From an uncultured Gammaproteobacteria bacterium (GTDB lineage: Bacteria > Patescibacteriota > Patescibacteriia > Magasanikbacterales > JBBTQS01), in the NCBI GenBank assembly GCA_965230935.1, contig OZ246400.1:246359-310358 (forward strand): a stretch of DNA of 64,000 bases, written 5' to 3'. Below the pieces are notes generated by a model that was not told where the DNA came from, ran no database searches, and worked only from the letters and a program-made list of their open reading frames with translations. Positions 4,760-58,463 of this stretch are shown here, piece after piece. Position 1 is the first letter of the stretch; each line of letters starts with the position of its first letter. A program made the position numbers and the translations under genes.

Positions 4760-4794
4760 TCAGTAATTTTAGCTAGTAATCGCCTACCATTCTT

Positions 4795-8052: not shown

Positions 8053-8164
8053 AGCAATACTCTTATTGTACGAAAATGAATAAGAAATAGCAATAAAAAG
8101 CAAAATCGTCCAGAGTTCTCTGCACGAAGACGCGTTGTGTATTTTGCTGTGACCCGTGGGCTGC

Positions 8165-8596: not shown

Positions 8597-8633
8597 ACAT
8601 ACCTCCTACCGCGGTTGTTGAACATATATTCAG

Positions 8634-8662
8634 CATACTCAGATTACTACACCTTTGTCAAC
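8634..8662 (-). promoter_or_regulatory. promoter of cassette D
   Basis: TTGACA at 8662-8657 on the minus strand, immediately after the S9 terminator; -10 hexamer ambiguous (GAGTAT / TATGCT). Confidence 0.45.
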
Positions 8663-8685
8663 AAAAAGGCCGCCTATCGGCGGCC
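8663..8685 (-). terminator. intrinsic terminator of the ribosomal protein operon (after rpsI)
   Basis: GGCCGCC-gata-GGCGGCC hairpin followed by TTTTT on the minus strand. Confidence 0.75.
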
Positions 8686-8710
8686 ATACTATGATTGACT
8701 GAGATGTGCT

Positions 8711-17981: not shown

Positions 17982-20900
17982 TTATTCAGCAACAAACCCC
18001 GTTGGGAACTTAATCATCTCTTCACGGTCTACAATCTGAGACCCGAGCACAAAGGTAAGTGCTGCTGGAGAAACATCTCGATACAACTCTGGAATAGCAT
18101 TTGCCTCAATAGCTGCATCATTTGCAAACATTCGCCACATACCACCTTCAACAAAGTAGGTTTGATCATCTTGAATTACTACTGCTCCATTTGGATATCG
18201 CACTGTGTCAATCACCTCGCCTAGATCATAATTCACAAACATAGCATCAGAAACATCAATTACACGATCTGCCCAATCATCTCCATATAACGCAGTTGCC
18301 AACTCTTCAGTTTTGATCCAGTGCAGCTTTGATCCGGTACCAATAGCATACGTCGCCTCTACTGTAGTGAGTTTAATCAATTTAGTCCCGGGACGTACTG
18401 TCATATTTGCACCAAGAGTGATTGCAGACATTACATCTTGCGACACAGTCCGAACTCCTGAGAAATCATCGCCATACCATGTGGCATACACTGATTGACT
18501 TGGGAATGCATGACGTTTTCCATCAACGCCGTAGTAATACACGGTATCAACATCAGCGGTTTTAATCAGATCTGCACGGGATAACTCAGCGACCTCTTGT
18601 ACAACTTCGACAGGGGCACCTGGAGCCGGTGTAGACGTGCCAGGATCTACCGGTTCATTTGCTGGTGGCTCAGATGGTGGGATAACAAGCAAATCACTTG
18701 CCAACTCAATCGTATCGGAGACAACTACAGAGGTGAACCCGCCCGAATTGGCGAACTTAGCATATACGGTCTTTACCCCATCACCTTCAGATAAGGTAAA
18801 GCTTTTACTAGATACATACGGCTCCCAAACACTATTGGCAAATGTTGGATCTTCACTCACTAACATTTCAGACGCACCACTCACACCCAATGACAATGTC
18901 ACGGTTTGCGTTGTGGTTATTTCATTTCCTTGATCAATACTAATTGATGGATCTTGCGGATAGTTTGGTGATGATTGGGTGTCATCGCCGCTCAAAGCAA
19001 CACTCTTAAGCGCAAGAGTTGCGCTTCCGGTATCAGTACCATCCTCATTATCAGTATACGCAATACTCAATGTTTCAGCGCCACTTACCTCTAAAATACT
19101 GTTTGACGCAATCGCATTACTGGTGTTATCCACAATAATTGATCCGGTAAATGTCTCTGAGACCACCGTTGTCTCTGTTAATGTCACGGTTTCACTATCA
19201 CCAAGCTGTGAAGTCACCGTAACAGTAACCGTTTCCGCTGAAGCGGCGTCTAAATTTTCATCTTGATCAACCACTCGGAAATACAGTGTCATACCATCCT
19301 CTAGTGTTGTCGAGATAATTGTGTTTTGTCCACTATCAGTGGCATTGACCCCCTCTTGCCCTTTCAAAATAACCGATGAACCACCTTGGGTGATCTCACC
19401 AGTATTGGTGATATCACCAGTCACGGTCAGATTGTTATTGTTTACATTAATAGTACTATTAACATTACTCACACTTAAGGCACCTTCAACCGTAACATTG
19501 GATTGTAATGTGTAAGTAGTACTTCCGTTTACCGTCAAATTTCCAAACGGTCCTCCAGTCACGTTAGTTGCAGAACCACCTGAAAGGATTACAGTTGAAT
19601 CCTCAGCAAAATCATGATTACCATCTCCGGCAAATATCGCACTAGTCCCATCAACAGTGAGGGTTGATCCTGAATTAAGTTGGAACAGACTGCCAGTTCC
19701 TATAGTCAATGAGCTGATAGTTAAACTATCGTCCGTTAACAATTCAGCATCATCACTATCAATATCCACAGCACCAAGATCCAAAGATCCGGAAGAAACA
19801 GTAATCGTTGAAGTTGAACTTCCATCAAATGTATATGCACCTGATCCATGAGTTACCGTCCCACCTGCTTGAGTAAAGCTACCGGCATGGTTGATTGCTG
19901 ACGTACCCCATTGAAGTGTTCCATTTGATGAAACCGTCACCAGACCTTCAATGTCGGCAGCATTGTTATTTGTTGAAAGATCAAGCGTGCTTGAGGTAAT
20001 AGTAACGGCGCCATTAACATCAAGGGTTGTTGTGTCAGCAGCAATCACAATTCCACCAGTGTTATTGATGGTCATATTTTGAAAAGCGGCAGTACTTGAA
20101 ACTGTCTGTGCCGCGCTTGTCCCATCAAAGGTTAAGGTTCCTGAACCCGGTGTAACCACACCTGCACCATTTTGTGTAAGGTTTCCAGCCATAGTAACGG
20201 CGCCCGAACCCCACGCAAGTGCTGCATTGGCATTGTCTGCAACACTAATCGCACCATCAGCATTAAGTACAGCATTATTTGTTGATAGATCGAGCGTACT
20301 TGATGTAATTGTAAGTGTGCCACCTACTGTAAGCGTTTGCCCAGATGCTACAATCACATTTCCAGCGGTTTTGTTAATGGTCAGTCCACCTTCAAGAGAT
20401 TGGTTATCAAAATCAATAGTTTGATTCCCGGCTGTTTGATCACCATCTAAGGTAAGTGTGGCTGAACCCGAGGACATAGTTGCTGAGTCATTTACCGTAA
20501 TATTCCCGGAAACAGTGATCGCTCCACTTCCCCATTGCATAGTAGCTTCCGCAGCATCAGCCAAAGTTAAACTTCCACCAGCACCACCCTCTTGGAGATC
20601 CATTGCCGCATTATTGGTCTCAAGGTTAAGATTGCCTAGTGTGATGGTGAACGTACCAGCGATAGTTAAATTACCACTCACAGTAAGATCATCGCTCGTG
20701 CCGCCGCCAGAATTATTTAATGTCATTGGGCCATATACCTCTCCAGCGCCCCCGGTAGTAAATTCTTGATCAGCAGCTCCATCAAATGTAATTTGTGGAC
20801 AATGCCCTTCTCCACAATCAAAAAATGTTCCACTGTTCACCGCAAAATCACCCGCAGCAGTAACTGTGGCTGCAAGCTGTAGTGTGCCAGAATCTAAATC

Positions 20901-21371
20901 AACTCCACCATCGAAATCCATTGTCCCTGCGCTAAACGTTGAGGTTACTGTTCCACCATTCACGAATGTCGGACCGCTAATTTTAAGACTATTACTCCCA
21001 ACATTAAGCGTTCCAGCAATTACTGTAGTTGACGCAATCGTTAACGTGCTACTACTTAATGTCACCGTTCCGGTATACCCGGTTGCCAAATGCACTTGCA
21101 AATCTTGGGCTGAGATAAAACTACTATCCCAGGTTGCATTATTTCCAGATGTCGCATCAAACGTGAGAATATCCCCTGCACTTGGCAATGTATTTGCATC
21201 CCAATTGGCAGCAGTACTCATGTTGGTATCACCTGCTCCACCACCATCCCAGGTCTTAACAGCAGCATGTGCACTTTGCATGCTTAATAATATGGCGACG
21301 AGCGCAATTCCCAAACTTAAAAGAAATCTCTTCTGTGAAAGAAGATGATAAAACAAGTGTCCTGAATTCAT
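17982..21371 (-). CDS. large secreted surface protein with beta-helix-like Thr/Gly/Asn-rich repeats
   Basis: 1129 aa; N-terminal signal peptide ending ..SAHAA; three roughly 75-aa internal repeats (TITSSTLDLSTNN...GSGTLTFDG); distinct C-terminal domain of about 250 aa. Confidence 0.8.
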   Translation of the reverse strand: MNSGHLFYHLLSQKRFLLSLGIALVAILLSMQSAHAAVKTWDGGGAGDTNMSTAANWDANTLPSAGDILTFDATSGNNATWDSSFISAQDLQVHLATGYTGTVTLSSSTLTIASTTVIAGTLNVGSNSLKISGPTFVNGGTVTSTFSAGTMDFDGGVDLDSGTLQLAATVTAAGDFAVNSGTFFDCGEGHCPQITFDGAADQEFTTGGAGEVYGPMTLNNSGGGTSDDLTVSGNLTIAGTFTITLGNLNLETNNAAMDLQEGGAGGSLTLADAAEATMQWGSGAITVSGNITVNDSATMSSGSATLTLDGDQTAGNQTIDFDNQSLEGGLTINKTAGNVIVASGQTLTVGGTLTITSSTLDLSTNNAVLNADGAISVADNANAALAWGSGAVTMAGNLTQNGAGVVTPGSGTLTFDGTSAAQTVSSTAAFQNMTINNTGGIVIAADTTTLDVNGAVTITSSTLDLSTNNNAADIEGLVTVSSNGTLQWGTSAINHAGSFTQAGGTVTHGSGAYTFDGSSTSTITVSSGSLDLGAVDIDSDDAELLTDDSLTISSLTIGTGSLFQLNSGSTLTVDGTSAIFAGDGNHDFAEDSTVILSGGSATNVTGGPFGNLTVNGSTTYTLQSNVTVEGALSVSNVNSTINVNNNNLTVTGDITNTGEITQGGSSVILKGQEGVNATDSGQNTIISTTLEDGMTLYFRVVDQDENLDAASAETVTVTVTSQLGDSETVTLTETTVVSETFTGSIIVDNTSNAIASNSILEVSGAETLSIAYTDNEDGTDTGSATLALKSVALSGDDTQSSPNYPQDPSISIDQGNEITTTQTVTLSLGVSGASEMLVSEDPTFANSVWEPYVSSKSFTLSEGDGVKTVYAKFANSGGFTSVVVSDTIELASDLLVIPPSEPPANEPVDPGTSTPAPGAPVEVVQEVAELSRADLIKTADVDTVYYYGVDGKRHAFPSQSVYATWYGDDFSGVRTVSQDVMSAITLGANMTVRPGTKLIKLTTVEATYAIGTGSKLHWIKTEELATALYGDDWADRVIDVSDAMFVNYDLGEVIDTVRYPNGAVVIQDDQTYFVEGGMWRMFANDAAIEANAIPELYRDVSPAALTFVLGSQIVDREEMIKFPTGFVAE
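19930..20800 (-). repeat. in-frame tandem coding repeats within the surface protein gene
   Basis: repeated peptide blocks L(D/N)L(S/E)TNN...WGSGA(I/V)T..GN(I/L)T; coordinates approximate. Confidence 0.4.
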
Positions 21372-21434
21372 ATAGTAATCATTTTTACTATTTTATATGG
21401 TAGTAGTATATCAAATCTCTGATATATGAACAAA

Positions 21435-22037
21435 CTAATTTGTCACCAAATACAGACGATCAGCCAATGAATCGTATGGTTCTACGGCCACAACCTCAAC
21501 ACCAGTCTGTTGTGCTTGTTGCACCAACCTATCATTGAGTGCACAAACATATGCGACTTCCTTTTCTTTTGCCTTCACTGTTTTGGCCCATAGCCCCCGC
21601 TGCATAATATTATTTTTGATGGTTTGATGATTGGCCTCCAACAGAACATAGCGCACACGAAGATCATACTTGGCAAATTCTCCAACATGAGTTGGCATAA
21701 GGTTTACCCCCTCAATAACCACACCAACATCGCGTAGAGCTGGATTTTCGCTTGTAATAAGGTCTTGTACCACCGGCCAAATTTCCCCTGCCTCATCACA
21801 AAACTGACGGATAAAATCATCAACCGTGTGCTCAAAAAAATACTTTTCCGGGTCTTTTTCCAAAAAAAAGTGGATTCCTGGATAGGTGTGTTTATGACTA
21901 ACGCTGCGCGCGATCCGGCGAATCGTATCAGTACCCAAATAATCAAACTTGAACTGATGTGCCAAAGCACGCGCAGCGGTGCTCTTCCCGATTGCAGGCG
22001 CACCACCGATCAACAATATTGATTTTTGTTTTTGCAT
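21435..22037 (-). CDS. P-loop NTPase / kinase-like protein
   Basis: Walker A GGAPAIGKST near the N-terminus; 200 aa. Confidence 0.6.
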   Translation of the reverse strand: MQKQKSILLIGGAPAIGKSTAARALAHQFKFDYLGTDTIRRIARSVSHKHTYPGIHFFLEKDPEKYFFEHTVDDFIRQFCDEAGEIWPVVQDLITSENPALRDVGVVIEGVNLMPTHVGEFAKYDLRVRYVLLEANHQTIKNNIMQRGLWAKTVKAKEKEVAYVCALNDRLVQQAQQTGVEVVAVEPYDSLADRLYLVTN

Positions 22038-22039
22038 AT

Positions 22040-24091
22040 CTACTCAAAGGTTACCACATCACCGGCCTTGAGTGGCTTGGCTGAAGTATCCTCCTGTTGT
22101 GTGTTTTGCACTGCGTTTTGTACTGGTTGAGGTGACGCTGGCGCCGCTTCAGCTGGCTGCTCTGATTGAACCTTTTCTTTCTTTGGCGAACCCACCTCTT
22201 CTTTCTTCTTCCGTTTACGACGGCGACGTTTGCGCTTCTTCTTCTCTTCAGATGATGGAGATTCTGTCTCGTCATCAGTAGCATTAGGCTGTAACGTCTC
22301 AAGAGTAACGTCTGGCTCAGTAGGCGCTGGAGATTCCACAGGTTCAGTTGTATCAGGCAACTGGCGCTTTTGCTCTTTTTCTTTAGTTGGTGGCGTTTTC
22401 TTTTTCTTTTTTTCTCCTGTTGAAAGAGGCTCAGCAGCTTCAGTTGGTTTCTTAGAGTTTTTTGTATCTTGAATTTCTTTTTTCGGTTCTCTTTTCTCAA
22501 TCGCCTTTTTTCCTTGTTTTAGTGCTTCTTTTTGTTCTTTAAGTGCATCAAGAACCTGCTGTGGCACTGACGGTGGTGGCTTACCCTCCTGTCGGTCTTT
22601 CATCGCATCTGGATAACAGTCACGACAATAAGTTGGTCGCTTTCCATCCGGTGGGAAAGGCACATCAGTTTCATTAAGACATCGCCAACAATGTGTTTTA
22701 TACGGATGGCGCTGCTCATCCGGAATATCAGCTTCTTTCACGCGGGATGCTTTTTTCTTACCACCAGATTCTTTTGCGGACAAAAATTCTTCAACATCAA
22801 CTTCGGCCATACCACTCCACTCTAAAATCTTCTCCTCAATTTGTGCTCGTGGTGTTGCATATCGCTCTCGAGTGACCTTGATGACCTTGTCCGCACTTGC
22901 AGTTGATGAACCAATTGGCGGTAACCCAGACGCACTAAACGGCTTTGACGCTACCCCATCGATCATCAGCCGCATATATACATGAAACTTTGGCAAGTTC
23001 ACAATATCCTGCTCCGTAAACACCGGGTCAAACTCTTTTGCTAAAAACTCCGCATCCTTAGCACCTACCCGATACGCAATAATAGTTCCGACGTTACCAA
23101 ATACTGCAGAAGCAACAGTTTCCTCGAGCTGCTCAATGTATTGATGTGCCATTACCAAACCAAGTCGATACTTACGAGCTTCCGATAGAATATTGGCAAA
23201 TGAATCTGTGGCAAAGTTTTGAAACTCATCAACATAGAGGAAAAAATCTTTACGGTCTTCTTCCGGAATATCAACGCGCTCCATTGCTGAAAGCTGCAAC
23301 TTCGTCACCAACATACCACCCAGCAACCGCGACGCATCCTCACCCACACGTCCTTTAGACAAGTTGATGATAAAAATCTTGCGCTCATCCATGATCTTGC
23401 GAATATCGATTGTGGATTTTACCTGGGCAACAATATTTCGCATGATCGAACCAGACAAAAACTGACCGATTTTGTTTTGAATTGGTGCTACTGCCTCTTG
23501 CTGATACCGATCATTATAGTTCGCAAATTCTGTGAGCCAAAATGCCTTTACCACCGGGTCAGTAACATTGACGATAATTTTTTTACGATATACCGGATCA
23601 GCAAGTAAACGATTGATACCGAGCAAGGTAGTTCCTGGATTTTCCAAAAGTGCCAAAATGGTGTTATTCAAGATGTATTCCATTCGTGAACTCCACATGT
23701 CAATCCAGATTTTTTTGAACACACTCATCAAGCCTGATGCAATCAAATGGCGATGCGACTCATTTTTAAGTTCCAAAATATTGAAACCAATCGGATAATC
23801 TGCGTCAGACGGGTTGAAGTACACCACATCGTTGATTCGCTCATTGGGAATATAATCAATAATTTTCTCAGCTGAATCGCCGTGTGGGTCAATCAGCGCA
23901 ATACCATGGCCATTATAAATGTCTGATAGCACCATGTTTTCAAGCATGGTCGTTTTTCCCATGCCGGTTTTCCCAATCAAGTACACATGACGGCGACGAT
24001 CATCCAATTTGATACCAAAACGCCGCTTCTGATTACGAAAATCAGTTTGCGCAAACACGGTTACTTCACTTTTAATCGGATTTTCTGACAT
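22040..24091 (-). CDS. VirD4/TraD-like (type IV coupling protein family) ATPase with Lys/Glu-rich C-terminal tail
   Basis: Walker A GKTGMGKTT, Walker B FLYVDEFQNF, AHQ motif; C-terminal CWRC...CRDC zinc-finger-like motif and KKKRKRRRRKRKKKEE low-complexity tail. Confidence 0.7.
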   Translation of the reverse strand: MSENPIKSEVTVFAQTDFRNQKRRFGIKLDDRRRHVYLIGKTGMGKTTMLENMVLSDIYNGHGIALIDPHGDSAEKIIDYIPNERINDVVYFNPSDADYPIGFNILELKNESHRHLIASGLMSVFKKIWIDMWSSRMEYILNNTILALLENPGTTLLGINRLLADPVYRKKIIVNVTDPVVKAFWLTEFANYNDRYQQEAVAPIQNKIGQFLSGSIMRNIVAQVKSTIDIRKIMDERKIFIINLSKGRVGEDASRLLGGMLVTKLQLSAMERVDIPEEDRKDFFLYVDEFQNFATDSFANILSEARKYRLGLVMAHQYIEQLEETVASAVFGNVGTIIAYRVGAKDAEFLAKEFDPVFTEQDIVNLPKFHVYMRLMIDGVASKPFSASGLPPIGSSTASADKVIKVTRERYATPRAQIEEKILEWSGMAEVDVEEFLSAKESGGKKKASRVKEADIPDEQRHPYKTHCWRCLNETDVPFPPDGKRPTYCRDCYPDAMKDRQEGKPPPSVPQQVLDALKEQKEALKQGKKAIEKREPKKEIQDTKNSKKPTEAAEPLSTGEKKKKKTPPTKEKEQKRQLPDTTEPVESPAPTEPDVTLETLQPNATDDETESPSSEEKKKRKRRRRKRKKKEEVGSPKKEKVQSEQPAEAAPASPQPVQNAVQNTQQEDTSAKPLKAGDVVTFE

Positions 24092-24093
24092 AA

Positions 24094-25635
24094 TTACACA
24101 AATGGGAGATTCTCTGGTGGGGTATCATCGACCGGCTCAGTTGGTTCTTCTGTTGATTGTACCACCTCTTCACCTGTATCTACGGGTGTATCTGATGACT
24201 CTGACATATCAAACGGCTCATCAGCATACGGCAAAGGCTGATCAGCAAGCGCCGTAGTCGCCACTTTTCCACTTCCAGGGCGCGATCCACCAACCGGTGC
24301 TAAGGTATCGCCAGACGGCAACCCCATAGGCGCTTCGCCACGCTTCCCAACTGTTTTTTGCAGTAATGGCGCGCGAACCGTATTTACTGGGAAATGCCAC
24401 AACGACGCCAACTCCTCGACATTCAAAATAAACTTTTCAACACCAAGCCATGCACTGCGCCCCTTATACGCACTCATAATCTTAGTGCGGCGAGAATCTT
24501 TGCGGGTTTCCATAAACACGTAGTGCGCCGATGTTCCGGTGCGCTTATACGCGGGTTTGAGTCCATTCGTATCTTCTTTGGTAAACTGCTTAATCGCACC
24601 GACCACCCCGTAGACAATCCGCGACTTATCAAATACTTCGTGCTTTGCAATATATAAATTGCGCACTTTTACCATCCAACCGATCTTCGATACTTTGCGC
24701 TCAATAGCTTTGACCTTGTCAACCTCCCCCGGTGTCATGCTCCAAATACCGGTATTAAAATCAGGCTTGTCAGGTTCTGAATCTCCAGCATCAAATGCTG
24801 GTGGATCACCTTCCCCAATCAGGCCATGGATCGCGAGTTGCATCAAATAAATTGGGAAAAAGAATATTTTAAACAGCGGCCCGGCTTTTTTCTTGGTCGC
24901 CTTACCCAACATCTCTCGCGCCATTTCAAATCCACCTTCTTTCCAGCTCTGCCCGGTTGGGAACAAAATAATCTGAAACCATGCTTGCTCATCCTTACCA
25001 ATACGCGAGTACGTCTCCAAAAGCGCAGCCATCGGGTCTTTAAACTCCTGAGAAAGCTTATCTTCAAACTCCATGTGGGTTTTGATTGGGATGTAATGCG
25101 AATCAACAAGCTCAAACTCACACCCCCACACCTTCCACACAGGATCAGGAAATTTTGTTGGAAAATCTGTCGTATAATCTTCAATCTCTGTAATCTCGGC
25201 ATCAGGATATTGGGCATAAATAATTGATTCAACTAAATCTCGAAAGAGCTTTTCAGTCATGATCACAAACTGGATATATCCTTCAATGCTGATGATTTCA
25301 AAACTAAACCATTGTTGAAATTGTCCATCCCAATAAATCTCTCGCAAATCTCGGGTCATGTGCGCACCGGCTAAATGCGCAAAAATGTTCTCTACCGCGA
25401 GCGGGCTTTGTTCATTTTCCTTTGGAATATCAATCGCCAAAAATTGCCACTCAAATCGCCCAATGAACACACCAAACCGACGAATCTGATACATTTCCAT
25501 GCTCATGCGAAAGAGCACATAAAACAAAATCATCCATCCACCATAGTAATACATGAACACAAACAAATCACGGCCAGAGACGATGTTCTGTCCGAATACA
25601 AGATTAATGCTTTCGATGAATGAGTCTAAAAACAC
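24094..25635 (-). CDS. integral membrane protein of unknown function, operonic with the VirD4-like ATPase
   Basis: 513 aa, N-terminal TM helices, acidic C-terminus; stop abuts the downstream ATPase start (3-nt gap). Confidence 0.65.
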   Translation of the reverse strand: MFLDSFIESINLVFGQNIVSGRDLFVFMYYYGGWMILFYVLFRMSMEMYQIRRFGVFIGRFEWQFLAIDIPKENEQSPLAVENIFAHLAGAHMTRDLREIYWDGQFQQWFSFEIISIEGYIQFVIMTEKLFRDLVESIIYAQYPDAEITEIEDYTTDFPTKFPDPVWKVWGCEFELVDSHYIPIKTHMEFEDKLSQEFKDPMAALLETYSRIGKDEQAWFQIILFPTGQSWKEGGFEMAREMLGKATKKKAGPLFKIFFFPIYLMQLAIHGLIGEGDPPAFDAGDSEPDKPDFNTGIWSMTPGEVDKVKAIERKVSKIGWMVKVRNLYIAKHEVFDKSRIVYGVVGAIKQFTKEDTNGLKPAYKRTGTSAHYVFMETRKDSRRTKIMSAYKGRSAWLGVEKFILNVEELASLWHFPVNTVRAPLLQKTVGKRGEAPMGLPSGDTLAPVGGSRPGSGKVATTALADQPLPYADEPFDMSESSDTPVDTGEEVVQSTEEPTEPVDDTPPENLPFV

Positions 25636-28914: not shown

Positions 28915-31671
28915 CTACCCATGACATTTCTTATATTTCTTTCCACTTCCACAATGGCATGGGTCATTACGTCCAATCTTCTGCCCATGATCGTCTCGTG
29001 CTTTTACCTCTACTGGGGACAACGCACTCATGGCAGTGCCGACATTATCTTTAGTGCGCTGTGCCAATGCTGATTGCTTTGCCATGGTTTTGGCCGCACC
29101 ACTTACACTTACCCCTTGGCGATTCAATAATCCTTGATATTGTTCAATTGCTCCGTGAACTTTAAACATGGCATATACCACATCTTTACGTACCAATTGT
29201 TGCATTTGATCAAATAATTGATGCCCTTGCCGTTTATACTCCACCAGTGGGTCACGTTGCCCATATCCTTGCAACCCGATTCCGGAACGTAGATAACTCA
29301 TAGCTTGCAAATGATCCACCCACAACGAATCATATGCCCGTAGCAAAATATTCTTTTCAATATCTTGCAGATAGGGCGCATTTTCAGCACTACTCACCAC
29401 TTCTTGATACTGCTCTTGTGCATAGGTTTGTACCATTTGAGTCAGTTCTTCGCGCTTTTTGATCACTGGAATATTCTTGTTTTCCCACAATACCCCAAGT
29501 TCTTTCACAAAACTCTCGGAGAGTGGTAATCCTTTTTTAAGATCTTCAACACACTCCTCAAAGCGCCATATGGTCTCATCTGGAGAGTTCGTGAACCACC
29601 CAATTACAGCGGCCATCTCTTCTGTTACCATCTGTCCAATCAGTTGATTAAGTCCATCTTCGATCTCTGTAGCATCCAACACCGCCCGTCGTTTGCCATA
29701 CATTACTTCACGATGACGATTGAGCACATCATCATATTCCAGTAAGTGTTTACGTGAATCAAAGTTATTCCCTTCCACTTTTTTCTGCGAACTCTCGAGT
29801 GCGCGCGAGATCAAATTGTGCTGGATAGGAGTGTCATCAGGCAACTTAAGCCGCTGCATCATGGTTTTCATCCGATCACCAGAGAAAATACGCATCAAAT
29901 CATCTTCGGTTGAGACAAAAAACTGCGTCTCACCCGGATCACCTTGTCGTCCAGCACGACCACGTAACTGATTATCAATGCGACGCGACTCATGGCGCTC
30001 AGTACCAATAACAAACAATCCACCAATTCCTTTAATTTCTTGCGAACTCTCTGCAGTACCAGGATTTCCACCCAACACAATATCCACACCACGACCAGCC
30101 ATGTTCGTAGCGAGCGTCACTGCTCCGCGTTTACCAGCCTGCGCAATAATTTCTGCCTCTCGTTTGTGATTTTTCGCATTGAGCACTTCATGCGCAACAC
30201 CATTGCGTTCCAAAAGCTGACTTAACGCCTCGTTTTTCTCAATTGAAATCGTACCTACCAACACCGGTTGGCCAGCAGTATTACGCTTTTTAATCTCGGC
30301 CAGCACCGCATTCATCTTTGCTTGCTCAGTTTTGAAAATCAAATCCTGCTGGTCAATGCGGGCAATTGACTTGTTGGTCGGAATAACCACGACATTTAAC
30401 CCATAAATCTTGTAAAACTCCTCACTTTCAGTAAAAGCCGTACCAGTCATTCCAGAAAGCTTAGGATACATACGAAAATAATTCTGAAATGTCACCGTAC
30501 CTAGAGTTTGGCTTTCTTTTTGTACCTCTACTCCTTCTTTCGCTTCAATTGCTTGATGCAACCCTTCACTATATCGACGTCCTGGCATCAATCGGCCGGT
30601 AAACTGATCCACAATCATGACTTGCCCATCACGCACCACATAATCTTTATCTCGTGCAAAAACAGCCATTGCCTTAAGCGCCTGCTCAATATGATGCACC
30701 GTACGCAGGCCACCTTCAACATAAATATTGCCCATACCAAGTGTTTGCTCCACTTTGGCAATTCCAGCATCAGTCAATGTTGCAGCTCGCGCCTTTTCAT
30801 CAACCTTATAGTCTGTTTCTTTTTGAAGACTGCGAACCAGACGGGCAAATTTAAAATACTCTTCTGTTGCCTCAGCTGCTGGTGCACTAATAATCAGTGG
30901 GGTCCGTGCCTCATCAATCAAGATTGAGTCAATTTCATCAACAATAGCGTAATTGTATGGCCGCTGAACCATATTCGCCTTATCACGCACCATGTTGTCA
31001 CGCAAGTAATCAAATCCAAACTCATTGTTGGTTCCGTACGTGATGTCGCACTGATAGGCTTCTTGGCGTTGTGCCGGACGCAAATAGGATTCTTCTACTT
31101 CAAAACTGCCGGTTTCATCGCGATGCTCATCGCGCTCAGATCCTTCGTCTGGCTGTGGCGCGTTTTGATAAGTTTTGTCATAAATAAACGTACGATTTTG
31201 TGTTTGGATGATTCCAATGGAAAGCCCTAAGAAATCATAAATCTGTCCCATCCATACGGCGTCACGTTTGGCCAAATAATCATTGACGGTCACAACATGC
31301 GCCCCCTTACCTGAAAGTGCATTCAAATATACTGGTGCAGTTGAAGTAAGTGTTTTTCCTTCACCAGTACGCATTTCAGCGATTTGTCCTTGATGCAATG
31401 CTGCCCCACCCATAAGCTGCACATCATAATGCCGCTGACCAAGCACGCGCTTTGCTGCTTCACGAACTGTAGCAAATGCTTCTGGCAAAAGCTCATCAAC
31501 GCTCTCGCCAGCATCAAGACGCTTCCTAAATTCAGGGGTTTTTGCCTTCAATTGCTCATCAGTCAAAGGGGTAAATTGATCTTCCAGTGCATTTACTGCT
31601 TTGGCCACTCCCTGAAGACGTTTAAGCTCTTTTTTATTAGGATCTCCTAGTAGTTTTTTCAAAAATGACAT
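28915..31671 (-). CDS. secA: preprotein translocase ATPase SecA
   Basis: 918 aa, DEAD-like motor, C-terminal CHCGSGKKYKKCHG zinc-binding tail. Confidence 0.95.
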   Translation of the reverse strand: MSFLKKLLGDPNKKELKRLQGVAKAVNALEDQFTPLTDEQLKAKTPEFRKRLDAGESVDELLPEAFATVREAAKRVLGQRHYDVQLMGGAALHQGQIAEMRTGEGKTLTSTAPVYLNALSGKGAHVVTVNDYLAKRDAVWMGQIYDFLGLSIGIIQTQNRTFIYDKTYQNAPQPDEGSERDEHRDETGSFEVEESYLRPAQRQEAYQCDITYGTNNEFGFDYLRDNMVRDKANMVQRPYNYAIVDEIDSILIDEARTPLIISAPAAEATEEYFKFARLVRSLQKETDYKVDEKARAATLTDAGIAKVEQTLGMGNIYVEGGLRTVHHIEQALKAMAVFARDKDYVVRDGQVMIVDQFTGRLMPGRRYSEGLHQAIEAKEGVEVQKESQTLGTVTFQNYFRMYPKLSGMTGTAFTESEEFYKIYGLNVVVIPTNKSIARIDQQDLIFKTEQAKMNAVLAEIKKRNTAGQPVLVGTISIEKNEALSQLLERNGVAHEVLNAKNHKREAEIIAQAGKRGAVTLATNMAGRGVDIVLGGNPGTAESSQEIKGIGGLFVIGTERHESRRIDNQLRGRAGRQGDPGETQFFVSTEDDLMRIFSGDRMKTMMQRLKLPDDTPIQHNLISRALESSQKKVEGNNFDSRKHLLEYDDVLNRHREVMYGKRRAVLDATEIEDGLNQLIGQMVTEEMAAVIGWFTNSPDETIWRFEECVEDLKKGLPLSESFVKELGVLWENKNIPVIKKREELTQMVQTYAQEQYQEVVSSAENAPYLQDIEKNILLRAYDSLWVDHLQAMSYLRSGIGLQGYGQRDPLVEYKRQGHQLFDQMQQLVRKDVVYAMFKVHGAIEQYQGLLNRQGVSVSGAAKTMAKQSALAQRTKDNVGTAMSALSPVEVKARDDHGQKIGRNDPCHCGSGKKYKKCHG

Positions 31672-31764
31672 AGTGGGTCGAAAACAGACCTATTTTAGCA
31701 CTAAGTCAAATAAACAACAAGCCCAACAATTTAGTCTTTTTGGCTAATTTTAGCTATCAAAGCC

Positions 31765-31793
31765 TTGACAAAAGGCCAAAAATGTGCTATGAT
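31765..31793 (+). promoter_or_regulatory. sigma70-like promoter of cassette E
   Basis: TTGACA (31765-31770), 17-nt spacer, TATGAT (31788-31793); preceded by a CTAATTTTAGCTA motif. Confidence 0.6.
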
Positions 31794-31839
31794 AGACACA
31801 CGTTTTTTGACATTCTCACCTTTTGTCCCGGGAGGACCC

Positions 31840-32130
31840 ATGAACCAGAACTCGAACCCCATCACCTTCGCCGACTTCTTCAGTGCCTTCGCGCTCCTGC
31901 TGCTCGCGGTGCTCGTCGTCACGATCCCGGTGTGGGCCCCGAGCCTCTTCGACGAGGCGGCCTTCCCGGTCAACCTGAGCCAGTTCGCTCAGGCCACGAT
32001 CATCGGGTGCCTCTTCGGCGCCGGCCTGGCCACGCTGATGGTCCGCGCGATGTGCGCGACCACCCACCTGGCGCCGGCCTACGCCACGGAGTGCGACGAC
32101 GACTACGTCGACCTCGACTTCGACGGCTGA
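31840..32130 (+). CDS. GC-rich small membrane protein E (96 aa)
   Basis: SD GGGAGGA 3 nt upstream of ATG; two predicted TM segments; acidic C-terminus ECDDDYVDLDFDG; the ORF-track start at 31765 would begin inside the promoter. Confidence 0.65.
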   Translation: MNQNSNPITFADFFSAFALLLLAVLVVTIPVWAPSLFDEAAFPVNLSQFAQATIIGCLFGAGLATLMVRAMCATTHLAPAYATECDDDYVDLDFDG

Positions 32131-32172
32131 TCACCACACAGCGCGGGCAGCGCTAAACCCACCTGCCCACCG

Positions 32173-32214
32173 AAAGCCCCGACGCGGATTTCTAACACGC
32201 GACGGGGCTTTTCG
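32173..32214 (+). terminator. intrinsic terminator of cassette E
   Basis: AAAGCCCCGACGCG...CGCGACGGGGCTTT stem followed by TTTCG. Confidence 0.65.
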
Positions 32215-32239
32215 AATACAAAAATTGTGAGGTGATTAT

Positions 32240-32590
32240 TTATTCTTGCACAAACTCTTTTTGTGCACGAATCGCATTACGATCCTTGTGCTTCTGCTTG
32301 CCTTTCAATTTTTCAAGTTCAATTTTAAGGTGGTCTTTTACTTTATCAATTGCCTTGTACAGATCCTCTGCATCTTTGGTCACACGAATGGTGTGAAGTT
32401 TTGGTACATGCAGATTTACTTCAGCATAAAAAATCTTACCTTTATTATGATGGTGGGTGCGCATTCCGATATCAATCTCTACTTTGACAATATGATCATG
32501 GAATTTACTTAGTGATTCAATTTTATCAGTTGCATATTGTTTAAGCGCTTCTGTCAAATCAATCCCGGTTCCTTGAATAGTTATGGTCAT
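32240..32590 (-). CDS. hpf: ribosome hibernation promoting factor
   Basis: start placed at MTITIQGTGIDLTEALKQYATDKI (S30AE/RaiA family). Confidence 0.85.
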   Translation of the reverse strand: MTITIQGTGIDLTEALKQYATDKIESLSKFHDHIVKVEIDIGMRTHHHNKGKIFYAEVNLHVPKLHTIRVTKDAEDLYKAIDKVKDHLKIELEKLKGKQKHKDRNAIRAQKEFVQE

Positions 32591-32601
32591 AGTATTTTTG
32601 T

Positions 32602-34998: not shown

Positions 34999-35027
34999 TT
35001 GCTGTCGATATGAAAAAATGGTATCAT
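34999..35027 (+). promoter_or_regulatory. promoter-like element upstream of GC-rich mini-ORF
   Basis: TTGCTG-17 nt-TATCAT ending 28 nt before the ATG. Confidence 0.4.
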
Positions 35028-35055
35028 AATGGCACAACCTCTCCTGGAGTACACC

Positions 35056-35184
35056 ATGCTCGACAACCATGAGCCCCAGCGGGCTGTTGAGCGTGGATCA
35101 GGTCTGCCGTTCGTGGCCACTCTCTTTTTGACTCTGACCCTCCTGCTCGGTGCACTCCTGAATCTGGCCTCGTACCTTGGCTGA
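35056..35184 (+). CDS. GC-rich mini-ORF (42 aa, single TM)
   Basis: hand-translated MLDNHEPQRAVERGSGLPFVATLFLTLTLLLGALLNLASYLG; GC-rich codons; below the ORF-track cut-off. Confidence 0.45.
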   Translation: MLDNHEPQRAVERGSGLPFVATLFLTLTLLLGALLNLASYLG

Positions 35185-35227
35185 CCTTCTCTCCCCGCCG
35201 GCCGCCTGCTCCAAGGACCCCCACGTT

Positions 35228-35252
35228 CCCGCGATTTCGAACGATCTCGCGG
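35228..35252 (+). terminator. hairpin after mini-ORF
   Basis: CCCGCGA-N11-TCGCGGG inverted repeat; no clear T tract. Confidence 0.35.
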
Positions 35253-35413
35253 GTCCGACTCTCTTAAGTCCAATTTTCATGATTTTTATCTCACTTGAAC
35301 ATCAATAAGAGGACTTGTAAGGCCGATATTGTGCCCGAGATCTTAGGGCGCGGTACTGGCCTTTTTCATTTATGTAAATTCTGATAAAGTTTGGTTACCT
35401 AATTGACATTGCT

Positions 35414-46394: not shown

Positions 46395-46452
46395 GATGTA
46401 GTATTTTGTTGACGTCTAACTTCCGCTGAGGCGCGTCGCGATCCCCTTCTTC

Positions 46453-47667
46453 CTAAGCAGACGGGCGTTTCAGCCAGGTCCAAGGAACGGTAAATCGGCG
46501 ACTCTCACGCCAGATATACCCTTCCTCTTGTGCTCGGGAGATATATGCACGAATCGAATCAGTTGAAATTCCACCACCAAATGATTCTGGGGTCAGATGA
46601 TGATGATAGAAGTCACGGCCGCCGGTGGAATCCCAAAGATGAACCAGTCGGTCAGACCAAGGCATCTCGAGCCGGGTTACCTGTGGTGGAGATGGGGCCT
46701 TCAACCAGTAGCACGCATTCGGATGGTTCTCAGCGCACCGGATGTACCCTTCCTTGCGTGCACGGCCCAGGTACGATTTAAGAGTGCCTTTAGAAACGCC
46801 ACCACCGAACGATTCGGCGCTGATCTCATCTCGAGAAAAGTCACTTCCACCGGTAGACTTCCAAAAGTAAAAAAGCCGCAATTCCCAAGGAATTTTTTGC
46901 TTATTCACTCTACTGCGATGTCGATTTGGTTCTTCACCACGCACACTACTATCAGCAGTTGCACCAACGTTCGTAGGCCTAGATGAAGGTTTCTGACCGT
47001 ACGGGTGTTCGCCTATCAAGGCAAAACCAGAGACCGAGATGCTATACCAATCACCCTCAAGACAAGCGCCGGTCAAGCGGTCTTCGTCGCAGCGAGACAA
47101 CAACATGTGATCCAACAGCATATCCATTACATCACCGATCTGCTCAAAGCCCAGTTTACCGAGCTTATCATCAGTAGCGGTTCTACGAATTGCCTGCCGA
47201 ACCAAGTCTTCCGGGAACGTCGGAATCTCGTTTAGATGGTATCCTGTCTGCTCGAAGATGTGGTGCAACACACGACGTAGTGCTTCATCAATCTGCAGCG
47301 AAGTACTCACATCGCCATCATAGCAAACACCAGGACGGTACGGTTCCCCTTCCCGGAACCACCCAACGTGACTCCTCCCGATCATGTCAAAAGCCGATGC
47401 CGTCATCTGAAGACGACGGTTCCTTCTTCCCTTGTACCCCACACTACCACGTGTGAGCAAGAAACGCTCTTCCATCACCGCAACCAACTGGGCACGACTC
47501 TTCACACCTAACTGTCTTTGCAGTTGTGTAGGCAGCGCTTCGCGAATCCATTTCTTAAGCTGCGCTTGTGTGAATGTGCGACGAACGCCTCTCCGGTATC
47601 CTGTTTTGCGAAAAAGCGCTTTGACCACTTCACGAAGAAGGTCGTACTGCGCCTGATTTCTCTGCAT
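46453..47667 (-). CDS. GC-rich protein F (about 405 aa) with internal tandem roughly 65-aa repeat
   Basis: start placed at MQRNQAQ (ATG 47665-47667) because of the strong SD AGGGGGGAG; repeats WELRLFYFWKSTGGSDF...ESFGGGVS...EGYI and WSDRLVHLWDSTGGRDF...ESFGGGIS...EGYI. Confidence 0.7.
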   Translation of the reverse strand: MQRNQAQYDLLREVVKALFRKTGYRRGVRRTFTQAQLKKWIREALPTQLQRQLGVKSRAQLVAVMEERFLLTRGSVGYKGRRNRRLQMTASAFDMIGRSHVGWFREGEPYRPGVCYDGDVSTSLQIDEALRRVLHHIFEQTGYHLNEIPTFPEDLVRQAIRRTATDDKLGKLGFEQIGDVMDMLLDHMLLSRCDEDRLTGACLEGDWYSISVSGFALIGEHPYGQKPSSRPTNVGATADSSVRGEEPNRHRSRVNKQKIPWELRLFYFWKSTGGSDFSRDEISAESFGGGVSKGTLKSYLGRARKEGYIRCAENHPNACYWLKAPSPPQVTRLEMPWSDRLVHLWDSTGGRDFYHHHLTPESFGGGISTDSIRAYISRAQEEGYIWRESRRFTVPWTWLKRPSA

Positions 47668-47809
47668 TTTGATCTCCCCCCTAAGGGTCTTGTGTTGATG
47701 AAATTGACCAATTAGCTGAGTATAGTTAATCATTTTATATTATTTTGTCAAGAATAAATTAAGACAAATATAAAATTTACATATCCTTTTACTCCGTGTA
47801 CACTAAATT

Positions 47810-53256: not shown

Positions 53257-53285
53257 TTGACAGAAACTCAATTACTTACTACAAT
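53257..53285 (+). promoter_or_regulatory. sigma70-like promoter of cassette G
   Basis: TTGACA (53257-53262), 17-nt spacer, TACAAT (53280-53285). Confidence 0.6.
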
Positions 53286-53343
53286 ACCTTTCCATTGAAG
53301 GAAACAACACCAACCTCTAGTAGCGAAAGCTAAGGAGTCTGAC

Positions 53344-54021
53344 GTGCACACCAATCCGATCCTAACCGCTGCCTTGCTGATCGTGGCATTGACGTTGGCC
53401 GGGTGCGGCGGCCCGGAGCAGCTCGTCAACACCGGGCAGACGCATTTGATCCGCACCGGGACGGAGGACGCCGAACATCATCCCGCCTGCATCGACCTGC
53501 CGTTGCAAGTCAAGCAGGGTGAGCACATCACGCTGAAGCACGTCCCCGAGACGTCACAACAGCACGCGGTGTGCTATGTCGGCGATTGGGATGAGTTGTT
53601 TGGACGAAGCACCAGTGTGCTGATTAATCCTGCGCGGTATTGGCCGACCATCATTGACCTGAACCTGTGGTGGGACAAGGTGATGAAGGGTCAGAGCAAG
53701 CCGCAGCAGGGCTCTACCGAGAACCTCACCTACTGGTACGTCTTCGACAAGGGAGCCGTGTACAACGGCAGCATTCTCACGATCTGTACCAAGGACGTTC
53801 GAGAAAACCTCAAAAAAGGCGGCCACGCGTCGGTAGGATGGGGAGTCCAAATGACAACTGGAATGTCGGAGTTTTTCCTGCATGTTGTGAAGACGCTCAT
53901 CGAAAGTGGAACACTCGGATCTGATGCCACCATCGACCCGCTGATGCCGATCCCAGCGGCACTGGATGGCCTTGGTAAGGATCCGCGATTCTGCTCGCAG
54001 GTCTTGATCAAGCACAACTAA
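53344..54021 (+). CDS. GC-rich predicted lipoprotein G (225 aa, unknown function)
   Basis: GTG start after SD AAGGAG; signal peptide with lipobox LTLAGC; GC-rich codons. Confidence 0.7.
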   Translation: MHTNPILTAALLIVALTLAGCGGPEQLVNTGQTHLIRTGTEDAEHHPACIDLPLQVKQGEHITLKHVPETSQQHAVCYVGDWDELFGRSTSVLINPARYWPTIIDLNLWWDKVMKGQSKPQQGSTENLTYWYVFDKGAVYNGSILTICTKDVRENLKKGGHASVGWGVQMTTGMSEFFLHVVKTLIESGTLGSDATIDPLMPIPAALDGLGKDPRFCSQVLIKHN

Positions 54022-54037
54022 CAACTTACAACCACAA

Positions 54038-54071
54038 CGACCTGCACGTAATGCGGGTCGTTTGTATTTTT
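54038..54071 (+). terminator. intrinsic terminator of cassette G
   Basis: CGACCTGC-acgtaat-GCGGGTCG stem (one G-U pair) followed by TTTGTATTTTT. Confidence 0.65.
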
Positions 54072-57737: not shown

Positions 57738-57766
57738 TTGACAATCTTCAAAAAATCTGCTATACC
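57738..57766 (+). promoter_or_regulatory. sigma70-like promoter of cassette H
   Basis: TTGACA (57738-57743), 17-nt spacer, TATACC. Confidence 0.55.
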
Positions 57767-57810
57767 ATGATCAGCTAAAACTCTGAAAGCCGAAAGGCAC
57801 CTGGAGGGCA

Positions 57811-58410: not shown

Positions 58411-58426
58411 CAACTCACACAACAAC

Positions 58427-58463
58427 AAACCCACCAAGCGAACGCGAGGTGGGTTTGGGATTT
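58427..58463. terminator. hairpin terminator after cassette H (possibly bidirectional)
   Basis: 9-bp stem AAACCCACC-N12-GGTGGGTTT followed by GGGATTTT; the convergent minus-strand gene ends about 25 nt downstream. Confidence 0.7.

What the first reader, a model, noticed from the sequence alone, without database searches (positions are those of the whole stretch)
31760..32215. Cassette E: GC-rich 96-aa double-TM protein with acidic tail, inserted between secA and hpf
A perfect TTGACA-17-TATGAT promoter with a GGGAGGA SD drives a small ORF. It encodes two hydrophobic helices (FADFFSAFALLLLAVLVVTIPVWAP; ATIIGCLFGAGLATLMV) and a strongly acidic C-terminus (ECDDDYVDLDFDG), followed by a GC-rich terminator. 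Small membrane proteins of this kind often act as toxins, holin-like proteins or regulators of membrane complexes. Its composition shows it belongs to the foreign set.
Basis: partly seen in the sequence, partly recalled or inferred. Interest (0 to 1): 0.55.

Follow-up and report, generated by a model that had tools for sequence, protein, structure and literature searches.

The report
Self-contained GC-rich small membrane-protein cassette
Between the housekeeping genes secA and hpf of an uncultured ultra-small (Patescibacteria) bacterium sits a self-contained gene unit with its own promoter and terminator, encoding a 96-residue two-helix membrane protein with no known relative; it is one of about ten such GC-rich units in the window, and its function is unknown.

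Summary
At 31765-32214 (+) there is a TTGACA-17-TATGAT promoter with an extended -10, a GGGAGGA ribosome-binding site, a 96-codon ORF (31840-32130) and a strong hairpin terminator, lying antisense between secA and hpf.

The ORF is real coding sequence with alien codon usage: GC at codon positions 1/2/3 is 0.61/0.43/0.97, against GC3 of about 0.38 in host genes. It encodes two hydrophobic helices and an acidic tail.

It is an orphan. Its only credible match among about 15 billion proteins is the same gene from the same strain.

Nothing supports a toxin or holin: there is no lysin, antitoxin or antisense promoter, and the tail is acidic rather than basic.

The context says more. The window holds about ten units of the same build. 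In related genomes the hpf-secA gap is either empty (52-234 bp) or holds different GC-rich small genes on the antisense strand. The TTGACAAA-type promoter appears only where the gap is occupied.

I read cassette E as a moron-like accessory expression unit from the Patescibacteria mobile gene pool that makes a small two-pass membrane protein, possibly for envelope protection. That function is inferred, not shown. Why these ORFs are GC-rich is unexplained.

The parts
31765..31793 (+). Sigma-70-type promoter: -35 TTGACA (31765-31770), 17-nt spacer, extended -10 TGcTATGAT (-10 hexamer 31788-31793). The inferred transcription start is near 31800.
   Evidence: 11 of 12 matches, TG present. The 29-nt block recurs with 4-5 mismatches at the same position in L105, L111 and L129.
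31794..31839 (+). Short leader of host-like composition (35-45% GC up to about 31825), with no significant predicted structure. It contains the SD GGGAGGA at 31830-31836.
   Evidence: z = +0.94; 20-nt GC profile.
31840..32130 (+). ORF of 96 aa plus stop: MNQNSNPITFADFFSAFALLLLAVLVVTIPVWAPSLFDEAAFPVNLSQFAQATIIGCLFGAGLATLMVRAMCATTHLAPAYATECDDDYVDLDFDG
   Evidence: GC1/2/3 0.61/0.43/0.97. Orphan status.
31867..31935 (+). Codons for hydrophobic helix 1 (residues about 10-32).
   Evidence: Kyte-Doolittle maximum 2.68; AF2 helix 10-32.
31984..32052 (+). Codons for hydrophobic helix 2 (residues about 49-71). It contains the small-xxx-small motif G56-C-L-F-G60-A-G62. R69, the only basic residue, lies at its C-terminal end.
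   Evidence: Kyte-Doolittle maximum 1.85; AF2 helix 46-77; sequence read directly.
32089..32127 (+). Codons for the acidic tail ECDDDYVDLDFDG (7 acidic residues of 13), predicted disordered.
32145..32168 (+). First 3' stem-loop (GGGCAG...CUGCCC), within a C/A-rich 3' UTR.
32171..32214 (+). Intrinsic terminator: GC-rich stem AAAGCCCCGACGCG / CGCGACGGGGCUUU followed by a T run. It ends 26 bp before the stop codon of convergent hpf.
   Evidence: z = -5.1. The GC-rich block ends at about 32212.

Best explanation
Cassette E is a self-contained accessory expression unit of the phage-'moron' type. It lies antisense in the hpf-secA intergenic slot of a Patescibacteria (Magasanikbacteria-like) chromosome.

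Shown:
- It has a near-consensus promoter, a strong SD, a genuinely coding ORF with alien codon usage, and its own terminator.
- The slot is empty in many relatives and holds different cargo in others.
- The promoter comes with the cargo.

Inferred:
- It is transcribed constitutively as a monocistronic mRNA of about 410 nt.
- The 96-aa product inserts into the cytoplasmic membrane as a helical hairpin, probably N-in/C-in. This rests on the single Arg after helix 2.
- It may self-associate through the GxxxG-like face of helix 2.
- It presents a disordered, highly acidic tail as an interaction or decoy surface.

Most likely role (inferred by analogy only): a non-essential envelope-level function such as blocking phage genome entry (superinfection exclusion) or modulating a membrane complex. 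It is not a lytic or toxic function.
For: - Anatomy and coding signal.
- Same build in about 10 units of the window. 7 of the 11 perfect TTGACA-N16-18-TAnnnT sites in 64 kb sit just upstream of GC-rich ORFs.
- No unit has a Pfam, NCBIfam, PHROG or PADLOC family. Several are envelope proteins: E has two TM helices, F one TM helix, and H a lipoprotein signal LAGC.
- murB-hpf-secA synteny is conserved in 54 related metagenome loci. The gap is 52-234 bp in 19 of them and 483-1775 bp in 35, often with higher GC than the locus.
- An antisense TTGAC[AT]-type promoter is present in 0 of 17 empty gaps and 18 of 31 occupied gaps, after removing duplicate loci.
- L105 and L111 are about 85% identical in their flanks. 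They share the promoter and the 3' UTR from the stop codon onwards, but carry different leader-plus-ORF segments (45 aa against 114 aa, the latter with GC3 0.89).
- Sister cassette J belongs to a family also found on 4 IMG/VR viral contigs and on a phage-like contig with terminase, recombinase and a DGR.
- Morons are defined by insertion between otherwise adjacent genes, their own promoter and terminator, and deviant GC. The first one described, HK97 gp15, is a small inner-membrane superinfection-exclusion protein (PMC3594210).
- No integrase or transposase lies beside the cassettes; the flanks are housekeeping genes.
Against: - There is no expression data, so promoter and terminator are predictions only.
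- E has no homologue, so conservation, selection and function cannot be tested.
- No close relative of the strain exists (next hpf 67%, best SecA 62%). The insertion boundaries are therefore inferred from composition only.
- The unit is on a chromosome, not in a recognisable prophage, so it is not a moron in the strict sense.
- The topology rests on one Arg, and the AF2 model has only low-to-moderate confidence (pLDDT 64.5).
- The envelope-protection role is pure analogy.
Confidence: 0.5

Rival explanations
1. Membrane toxin or holin-like protein. The small hydrophobic protein would permeabilise the membrane, either as a type I-like toxin or as a holin.
For: It is a small protein with two hydrophobic helices and a charged C-terminus. 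A GxxxG-like motif could support oligomerisation. Such proteins are common orphans.
Against: - There is no endolysin, antitoxin or second gene in the unit.
- No minus-strand promoter for an antisense RNA lies inside 31840-32215.
- The promoter is near-consensus with no visible operator, and the SD is strong. That would be lethal for a real toxin.
- The tail is acidic (net about -7), whereas holin tails are typically basic (from my own knowledge).
- At 96 aa with 2 TM helices it is outside the usual type I toxin range.
- PADLOC and PHROGs give no match.
- The gene is intact and identical in three samples.
Confidence: 0.1
2. Recently acquired passenger DNA with no function in this host. The ORF was a real gene in a very GC-rich donor, landed next to a promoter by chance, and has not yet decayed.
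For: GC3 of 0.97 against a host value of 0.38 implies very little amelioration. It has no homologues. Patescibacteria genomes are reported to carry up to 13% horizontally acquired DNA (PMC12455944).
Against: - The GC-rich block runs exactly from the SD to the terminator and is coupled to a lineage-type TTGACAAA promoter. That arrangement repeats in about 10 units here and in relatives.
- The ORF is intact.
- In small, streamlined genomes of this kind, useless DNA is expected to be lost quickly (general knowledge).
- GC-rich genes persist in the same slot across lineages whose SecA proteins are only 64-79% identical.
Confidence: 0.15
3. Lineage-resident 'slot' gene rather than an import. E would be one of a class of small genes long housed in conserved intergenic slots of these bacteria. 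Their high GC3 would be maintained by selection or a biased process, so composition would not indicate foreignness.
For: - A 6-Cys zinc-ribbon family (63-91 aa, GC3 0.61-0.86 for the seven motif-matched members, against host 0.24-0.51) occupies the same antisense position in at least 7 loci. Their SecA proteins are only 64-79% identical.
- Members of the J family are GC-richer than their surroundings in 5 of 7 separate contigs examined outside the window.
Against: E itself has no relative in any of these slots. Cargo differs even between genomes that are 85% identical, which indicates turnover. Two J homologues have host-like GC3 (0.33 and 0.375).
Confidence: 0.2
4. Accessory subunit of the neighbouring machinery: a Sec translocon partner in the manner of SecG or YajC, or a partner of the ribosome-hibernation factor.
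For: It lies directly between secA-secDF and hpf. SecG is also a small two-TM protein (from my own knowledge).
Against: It has no similarity to any Pfam or NCBIfam family, including Sec components. It is on the opposite strand with its own promoter and terminator. Its codon usage is alien. The slot is empty or differently filled in relatives.
Confidence: 0.03
5. Assembly chimera or a non-coding GC-rich RNA gene.
For: GC-rich islands in lower-GC genomes are sometimes structured RNAs or misassemblies.
Against: The junctions are identical in a 185-kb ENA contig, two Logan contigs, a 1.45-kb ENA contig and, by record, a 931-kb NCBI contig. No Rfam family matches, even at E <= 1. The 3-base periodicity is extreme.
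Confidence: 0.02

Closest known systems
Phage 'morons' (Juhala/Hendrix definition; for example the HK97 gene 15 unit)
   Same: It is a single-gene unit inserted between genes that are adjacent in relatives. It has its own promoter and terminator, and its base composition differs from its neighbours. The prototype product, gp15, is a small inner-membrane protein (PMC3594210).
   Different: It sits in a housekeeping operon of a chromosome, not in a phage or prophage. About 10 such units are dispersed over 64 kb. The promoter module is shared and the cargo is exchanged at a conserved slot. The ORFs are GC-rich relative to their context in the window and in most, though not all, related contigs examined.
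Integron gene cassettes
   Same: Small, mostly orphan single-ORF units with a structured element just after the stop codon. Cargo varies between relatives at a fixed place.
   Different: Each unit has its own promoter. The units are dispersed rather than arrayed. No IntI-type integrase or attI was seen among the ORFs I scanned. The 3' hairpins look like intrinsic terminators with T runs, not attC sites.
Small membrane superinfection-exclusion or immunity proteins (HK97 gp15, P22 SieA; T4 Imm from my own knowledge)
   Same: Small, poorly conserved inner-membrane proteins expressed constitutively from autonomous units.
   Different: There is no sequence or family relationship, and no phage-exclusion phenotype has been tested. 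The acidic tail has no counterpart that I know of.
Class II holins and type I toxins (Hok, TisB and similar)
   Same: Small size and hydrophobic helices.
   Different: It has no lysis partner or antisense RNA. The tail is acidic rather than basic. It is longer than type I toxins, and the promoter appears unregulated.

Membership tests
Phage moron | Inserted between two genes that are adjacent in related genomes | tested here: met
   The hpf-secA gap is 52-234 bp in 19 related loci and 568 bp here.
Phage moron | Own promoter and own terminator flanking the ORF | tested here: met
   Sequence predictions only. No transcript data.
Phage moron | Base composition different from the surrounding genes | tested here: met
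   GC 0.67 and GC3 0.97, against 0.36-0.47 and about 0.38 in the neighbours.
Phage moron | Resides in a phage or prophage genome | tested here: not met
   The flanks are secDF, secA, hpf, murB and murC. No phage genes lie nearby. E is absent from viral contigs and from phage GenBank records.
Integron gene cassette | Promoterless ORF followed by an attC recombination site, in an array next to intI/attI/Pc | tested here: not met
   The unit has its own promoter. The units are dispersed. No integrase was found among the 20 flanking proteins scanned. attC structure was not formally modelled.
Holin (class II) | Two TM domains with a charged (typically basic) C-terminus, encoded next to an endolysin in a lysis module | tested here: not met
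   Two TM helices are present. The tail is acidic, no lysin gene is adjacent, and there is no PHROG match.
Type I toxin-antitoxin | Hydrophobic peptide of fewer than about 60 aa, with an overlapping or adjacent antisense RNA gene | tested here: not met
   The protein is 96 aa with 2 TM helices. No minus-strand promoter-like site lies within 31840-32215. No Rfam sRNA matches.
Sec accessory proteins (SecG/YajC) | Sequence membership of the SecG or YajC families | tested here: not met
   No Pfam or NCBIfam match at E <= 0.1. No PDB match better than E = 0.017, and that match is to an unrelated kinase.
Superinfection-exclusion membrane proteins (functional class) | Blocks genome entry of incoming phage when expressed | not testable with these tools
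   This needs a cultivable host-phage system. Only the analogy to HK97 gp15 is available.

The most novel reading that the evidence does not exclude
E would be one instance of an undescribed cassette system in Patescibacteria and their phages.

- The units are dispersed and monocistronic, built as [TTGACAAA-type promoter - short leader - strong SD - GC-rich, mostly orphan ORF - C/A-rich tract - terminator].
- They occupy conserved intergenic slots inside housekeeping operons, usually antisense.
- The leader-plus-ORF segment is exchanged between shared promoter and 3' modules.
- High GC3 is actively maintained rather than ameliorated, for an unknown reason such as mRNA stability, escape from an AT-directed nuclease or silencer, or biased gene conversion at recombination-prone slots.
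Probability: 0.35. Interest if true: 0.75.

Novelty: new variant of a known kind. Interest (0 to 1): 0.52.

Why it matters
Patescibacteria have tiny, streamlined genomes and depend on host cells, and most of their accessory genes are uncharacterised.

About 11% of this 64-kb window consists of autonomous, strongly promoted, GC-rich, mostly orphan single-gene units. They sit in slots that are empty or differently filled in relatives.

If that picture is right, it points to an organised way of acquiring and expressing accessory functions, many of them envelope-targeted. These could include phage exclusion and host attachment.

It would also warn against reading GC deviation in these genomes as simple transfer from a GC-rich donor. 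Finally, it gives a concrete sequence signature with which to mine thousands of existing metagenome-assembled genomes.

For cassette E itself, the practical outcome is a corrected gene model. The 96-aa sense ORF replaces both the 83-aa antisense and the 113-aa extended ORFs called in public assemblies. It also yields a testable membrane-protein hypothesis.

Tried and rejected
- **Homology for E.** None of these gave anything useful:
  - the word-indexed search of 5.8 billion protein clusters found only the gene itself;
  - full HMMER against 1.84 billion representatives found itself plus one spurious repeat-protein hit;
  - Pfam, NCBIfam, PHROGs and PADLOC;
  - PDB sequences;
  - phage GenBank by tblastn and plasmids by blastn;
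  - IMG/VR;
  - all loci held.
- **Exact-sequence look-ups.** Two returned nothing because my gene starts differed from those on record.
- **SecA scan of GTDB genomes.** Universal motifs swamped it. The best hits were 45-62% identical, so no close relative was found.
- **Promoter pattern in viral contigs.** The 89 hits were generic strong phage promoters (my reading: Firmicutes-type), and only two of them were followed by GC-richer DNA. This was uninformative. It also shows that part of the spacer similarity is just the strong-promoter consensus.
- **First GC3-outlier ORF survey.** It was dominated by off-frame artefacts and I discarded it. The island-based version is noisy and I used it only qualitatively.
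- **Literature.** The project accession PRJEB17505 appears in no paper in the library.
- **Fold search.** I did not run it, because the AF2 model is a low-confidence helical hairpin and the matches would be meaningless.
- **Integron reading.** Rejected: the units have their own promoters, are dispersed, and no integrase was seen.
- **RNA-gene and chimera readings.** Rejected.
- **A3 and H cassettes.** No close relatives in viral contigs.

Full report
**What is there**

Reading 31400-32600 and listing ORFs shows secA (28915-31671, minus strand) and hpf/RaiA (32240-32590, minus strand, PF02482 in the public gene table). They are separated by 568 bp.

On the plus strand, this gap contains in order:
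- TTGACA (31765), a 17-nt spacer, then TATGAT (to 31793) with a TG extended -10. This is the best of 10 promoter-like sites in the 30.5-36.5 kb region scanned.
- A leader of about 40 nt with no significant structure (z = +0.94).
- GGGAGGA at 31830-31836.
- A 3' region that folds at -35.3 kcal/mol (z = -5.1). Its main hairpin, AAAGCCCCGACGCG...CGCGACGGGGCUUUU, ends 26 bp before the hpf stop codon.

**Is the ORF real?**

Length alone is weak evidence. At this composition a 96-codon open frame has a probability of about 0.16, and three other ORFs of 80-138 aa overlap it.

The codon-phase signal settles it. GC at positions 1/2/3 is 0.61/0.43/0.97, and third positions are C61 G33 T2 A0. That spread (0.54) was never reached in 20,000 shuffles, where the maximum was 0.29. 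Host genes nearby have GC3 of 0.31-0.40.

Public gene callers disagree. One assembly has a 113-aa sense ORF that starts inside the -10 hexamer. Three others have an 83-aa antisense ORF whose GC1 of 0.92 is the mirror image of the true frame. The 96-aa model fits the SD and the point where the coding signal begins.

**The protein**

- Kyte-Doolittle hydropathy gives two segments, residues about 10-32 (maximum 2.68) and about 49-71 (maximum 1.85).
- A single-sequence AlphaFold2 model gives helices 10-32 and 46-77 and a disordered tail, with low-to-moderate confidence (pLDDT 64.5).
- There are no lysines. The single arginine (R69) follows helix 2, which weakly suggests an N-in/C-in hairpin.
- Helix 2 carries G56xxxG60xG62.
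- The last 13 residues (ECDDDYVDLDFDG) include 7 acidic ones.

**Orphan status**

The word-indexed search of 5.8 billion clusters returns one protein, which is the same gene. Full HMMER against 1.84 billion representatives of about 15 billion proteins returns that protein plus one spurious hit.

Nothing else matched. Pfam, NCBIfam, PHROGs, PADLOC, PDB, phage GenBank, plasmids and IMG/VR were all negative. No Rfam family matches, even at E <= 1.

**Source and reality of the junction**

The locus is 100% identical in a 185-kb ENA contig, two Logan contigs and a 1.45-kb ENA contig, from three runs of PRJEB17505. The hpf protein is also recorded on a 931-kb NCBI contig. So this is a real, clonal genome.

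The organism is a Patescibacteria/CPR bacterium. Its nearest named hpf relatives are Candidatus Magasanikbacteria, and there is no close relative: the next hpf is 67% identical and the best SecA 62%. No polymorphism data exist.

**The window-wide pattern**

The window is 45.8% GC but has islands of 54-64% GC at 1121-4780, 8121-8630, 31811-32240, 35021-35300, 46411-46840, 53311-54030, 57921-58430 and 60381-61320.

Eight of the units I read closely (A1, A2, A3, B, E, H, I, J) share the same build:
- a perfect TTGACA with a 17-nt spacer and a -10 hexamer;
- a short leader of host-like composition;
- a strong SD;
- a GC-rich ORF (GC3 0.65-0.97);
- often a C/A-rich tract right after the stop codon;
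- a hairpin with a T run.

F (35029-35184) has an imperfect -35 (TTGCTG), and G (46453-47733) has GC3 of only 0.49; I did not read G's flanks.

Seven of the 11 perfect TTGACA-N16-18-TAnnnT sites in 64 kb precede these ORFs.

None of the ten proteins has a Pfam, NCBIfam, PHROG or PADLOC family. E and F are small membrane proteins, H has a lipoprotein signal, and A2 and A3 share a C-terminal domain.

The flanking genes are housekeeping or cell-envelope genes: fmt, glycosyltransferases, rpsI, cca, Mur ligases, epimerases and a subtilase. No integrase or transposase was seen.

**The slot in relatives**

An hpf-based scan of metagenome contigs gave 80 loci. In 54 of them the order murB-hpf-secA is conserved. 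The hpf-secA gap is 52-234 bp in 19 and 483-1775 bp in 35, often with higher GC than the locus: L111 0.53 against 0.37, L136 0.54 against 0.37, L105 0.50 against 0.38.

The cargo differs between loci and usually lies antisense. Examples:
- a 114-aa ORF with GC3 0.89 in L111;
- a 45-aa ORF in L105;
- two tandem units in L129, each ending in the same 3' module of about 55 nt;
- a recurrent family of 63-91-aa proteins with six conserved cysteines (CxxC...CxxCGH...CxCxxC), found in at least 7 loci.

These lineages have SecA proteins only 64-79% identical, yet GC3 in that family is 0.61-0.86 against host values of 0.24-0.51.

An antisense TTGAC[AT]-type promoter is found in 0 of 17 empty gaps and 18 of 31 occupied gaps, and most of these begin TTGACAAA.

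E's 29-nt promoter recurs with 4-5 mismatches at the same position in L105, L111 and L129. Part of that similarity is simply the strong-promoter consensus, as the viral scan showed.

L105 and L111 are about 85% identical in their flanks. They share the promoter and the 3' UTR from the stop codon onwards, but differ completely in the leader and ORF.

**Where the cargo circulates**

E has no relatives, so I used a sister cassette. J (266 aa, GC3 0.89) has six distant homologues. Their contexts are:
- One is on a phage-like contig with terminase, a serine recombinase and a DGR. There it is again a GC-rich island, with GC3 0.81 against about 0.45.
- Two are in CPR-like chromosomal contexts with host-like GC3.
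- Four further members lie on IMG/VR viral contigs. Each is GC-richer than its contig, with GC3 0.64-0.80 against contig GC 0.37-0.49.

So the gene pool is shared with phages of these bacteria. High GC goes with most members of the family rather than with any identifiable GC-rich donor genome.

**Interpretation**

These features match the definition of a phage moron: insertion between otherwise adjacent genes, own promoter and terminator, and deviant GC. The prototype product, HK97 gp15, is a small inner-membrane superinfection-exclusion protein (PMC3594210).

The unit fails one defining feature, because it is not in a phage or prophage. I therefore say it works like a moron, and I do not file it as one.

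The integron reading fails on promoters, arrangement and the absence of an integrase.

The toxin and holin readings lack a partner gene, an antisense promoter and a basic tail. They also sit badly with an unregulated near-consensus promoter.

A Sec-accessory role has no sequence support, and the slot's variability argues against it.

My best account has two parts. First, E is a constitutively expressed accessory unit that makes a two-pass membrane protein with a cytoplasmic acidic tail. I hold this with fair confidence as far as the unit and the membrane protein go. Second, it has an envelope-protective or complex-modulating role. I hold this with low confidence, because it rests on analogy only.

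**Unexplained**

- Why are the ORFs of these units so GC-rich (E is 0.97 at third positions) while their promoters are of the host lineage's AT-rich type?
- Why does this persist in deeply diverged lineages?
- What does the C/A-rich tract after the stop codons do? (note)

General horizontal transfer in Patescibacteria, up to 13% of genome length and mostly between Patescibacteria, is documented (PMC12455944). I found no description of this cassette architecture in the two literature searches I ran for it.

**Verdict**

The single gene is an ordinary-looking orphan. The system it belongs to is the interesting part.

Noticed in passing
window 977-1560, 1567-3170, 3200-4770, 8100-8690 (-), 35000-35290, 46411-47733 (-), 53257-54070, 57738-58460, 60325-61310: About nine further GC-rich units, most built like E (perfect TTGACA promoter, SD, GC-rich ORF with GC3 0.65-0.89, hairpin terminator); F (35029-35184) has an imperfect -35 (TTGCTG) and G (46453-47733) has GC3 of only 0.49. 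They are inserted between housekeeping genes. None of their proteins matches Pfam, NCBIfam, PHROGs or PADLOC.
   Followed up: partly
window 1685-3109 and 3368-4678: Cassette proteins A2 (474 aa) and A3 (436 aa) share a C-terminal domain (WFMRRW..AG..LYRYW; tblastn E about 1e-6). A3 starts with a CxxC...CxxC zinc-ribbon-like segment and has one TM helix. A2 has an N-terminal 'GFTLLQ' that resembles a prepilin motif; that resemblance is from memory and was not tested.
   Followed up: partly
window 1498-1537, 3117-3148, 4696-4727, 54013-54042, 58405-58445, 61230-61279; L121 and L124 just after the stop of the 2-TM cassette; L129 near 7055: A C/A-rich, G/T-poor tract (CAACAAC, ACAACAACTAC and similar) lies directly after the stop codon of many cassettes, before the terminator hairpin. 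It occurs in the window and in distant relatives. Its function is unknown. In E it is weaker (TCACCACACAGC).
   Followed up: partly
L117, L121, L123, L124, L129, L136 (three copies), L145, L087: hpf-secA gap, antisense strand: A family of 63-91-aa proteins with six conserved cysteines (CxxC...CxxC(G)H...CxCxxC) and raised GC3 (0.61-0.86 in the seven motif-matched members). It recurs in the same slot in lineages whose SecA proteins are only 64-79% identical.
   Followed up: partly
L105 6578-6912 vs L111 6449-6935: These two genomes are about 85% identical in their flanks. They share the cassette promoter and the 3' UTR from the stop codon onwards, but carry unrelated leader-plus-ORF segments (45 aa against 114 aa). 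This is a clean example of cargo replacement.
   Followed up: yes
L129 6440-7320 (minus strand): Two tandem GC-rich cassettes each end in the same 3' module of about 55 nt (TCGGATGGTyTGCAAAAATAAACCCCGCCGTGT...ACACGGCGGGGTTTTGTTT).
   Followed up: no
L259-L262 (IMG/VR), L163: Homologues of cassette J on viral or phage-like contigs are GC-rich islands in each of these five contigs. In the IMG/VR contigs their 3' UTRs carry 3-5 copies of a CTTGA motif before the terminator. In L163 the gene lies next to a DGR (bAvd plus reverse transcriptase).
   Followed up: partly
L105 6880-6909, 6360-6470; L111 6237-6330, 12028-12137: A palindromic repeat (TTCCCCTCCCCCTTGTAGGGGGAGGAAAA and variants) occurs several times per locus around the cassette. 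It looks like a REP- or MITE-type element.
   Followed up: no
window 31816-32067 (-) and 31789-32130 (+): Public assemblies annotate either an 83-aa antisense ORF or a 113-aa sense ORF that starts inside the -10 hexamer. The codon-phase GC signal and the SD support the 96-aa ORF instead.
   Followed up: yes
window 17985-25635 (-): A VirD4/TrwB-like coupling ATPase with a treble-clef zinc finger (22043-24091) is flanked by large ORFs with no family (1129 aa and 513 aa). This may be a type IV secretion-like or DNA-transfer module.
   Followed up: no
window 46453-47733 (-): The 426-aa protein (G) has an internal duplication near its C-terminus (...W.STGG.DF....L..ESFGGG.S....K.Y..RA..EGYI..., twice). 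It has weak winged-helix hits and a GC-rich 3' part.
   Followed up: no
window 32098-32118 (residues 87-93): The tail segment DDDYVDL superficially resembles acidic [W/F/Y]xx[L/I/V] short linear motifs such as eukaryotic LC3-interacting regions. This is recalled from memory, was not tested, and is quite possibly chance.
   Followed up: no
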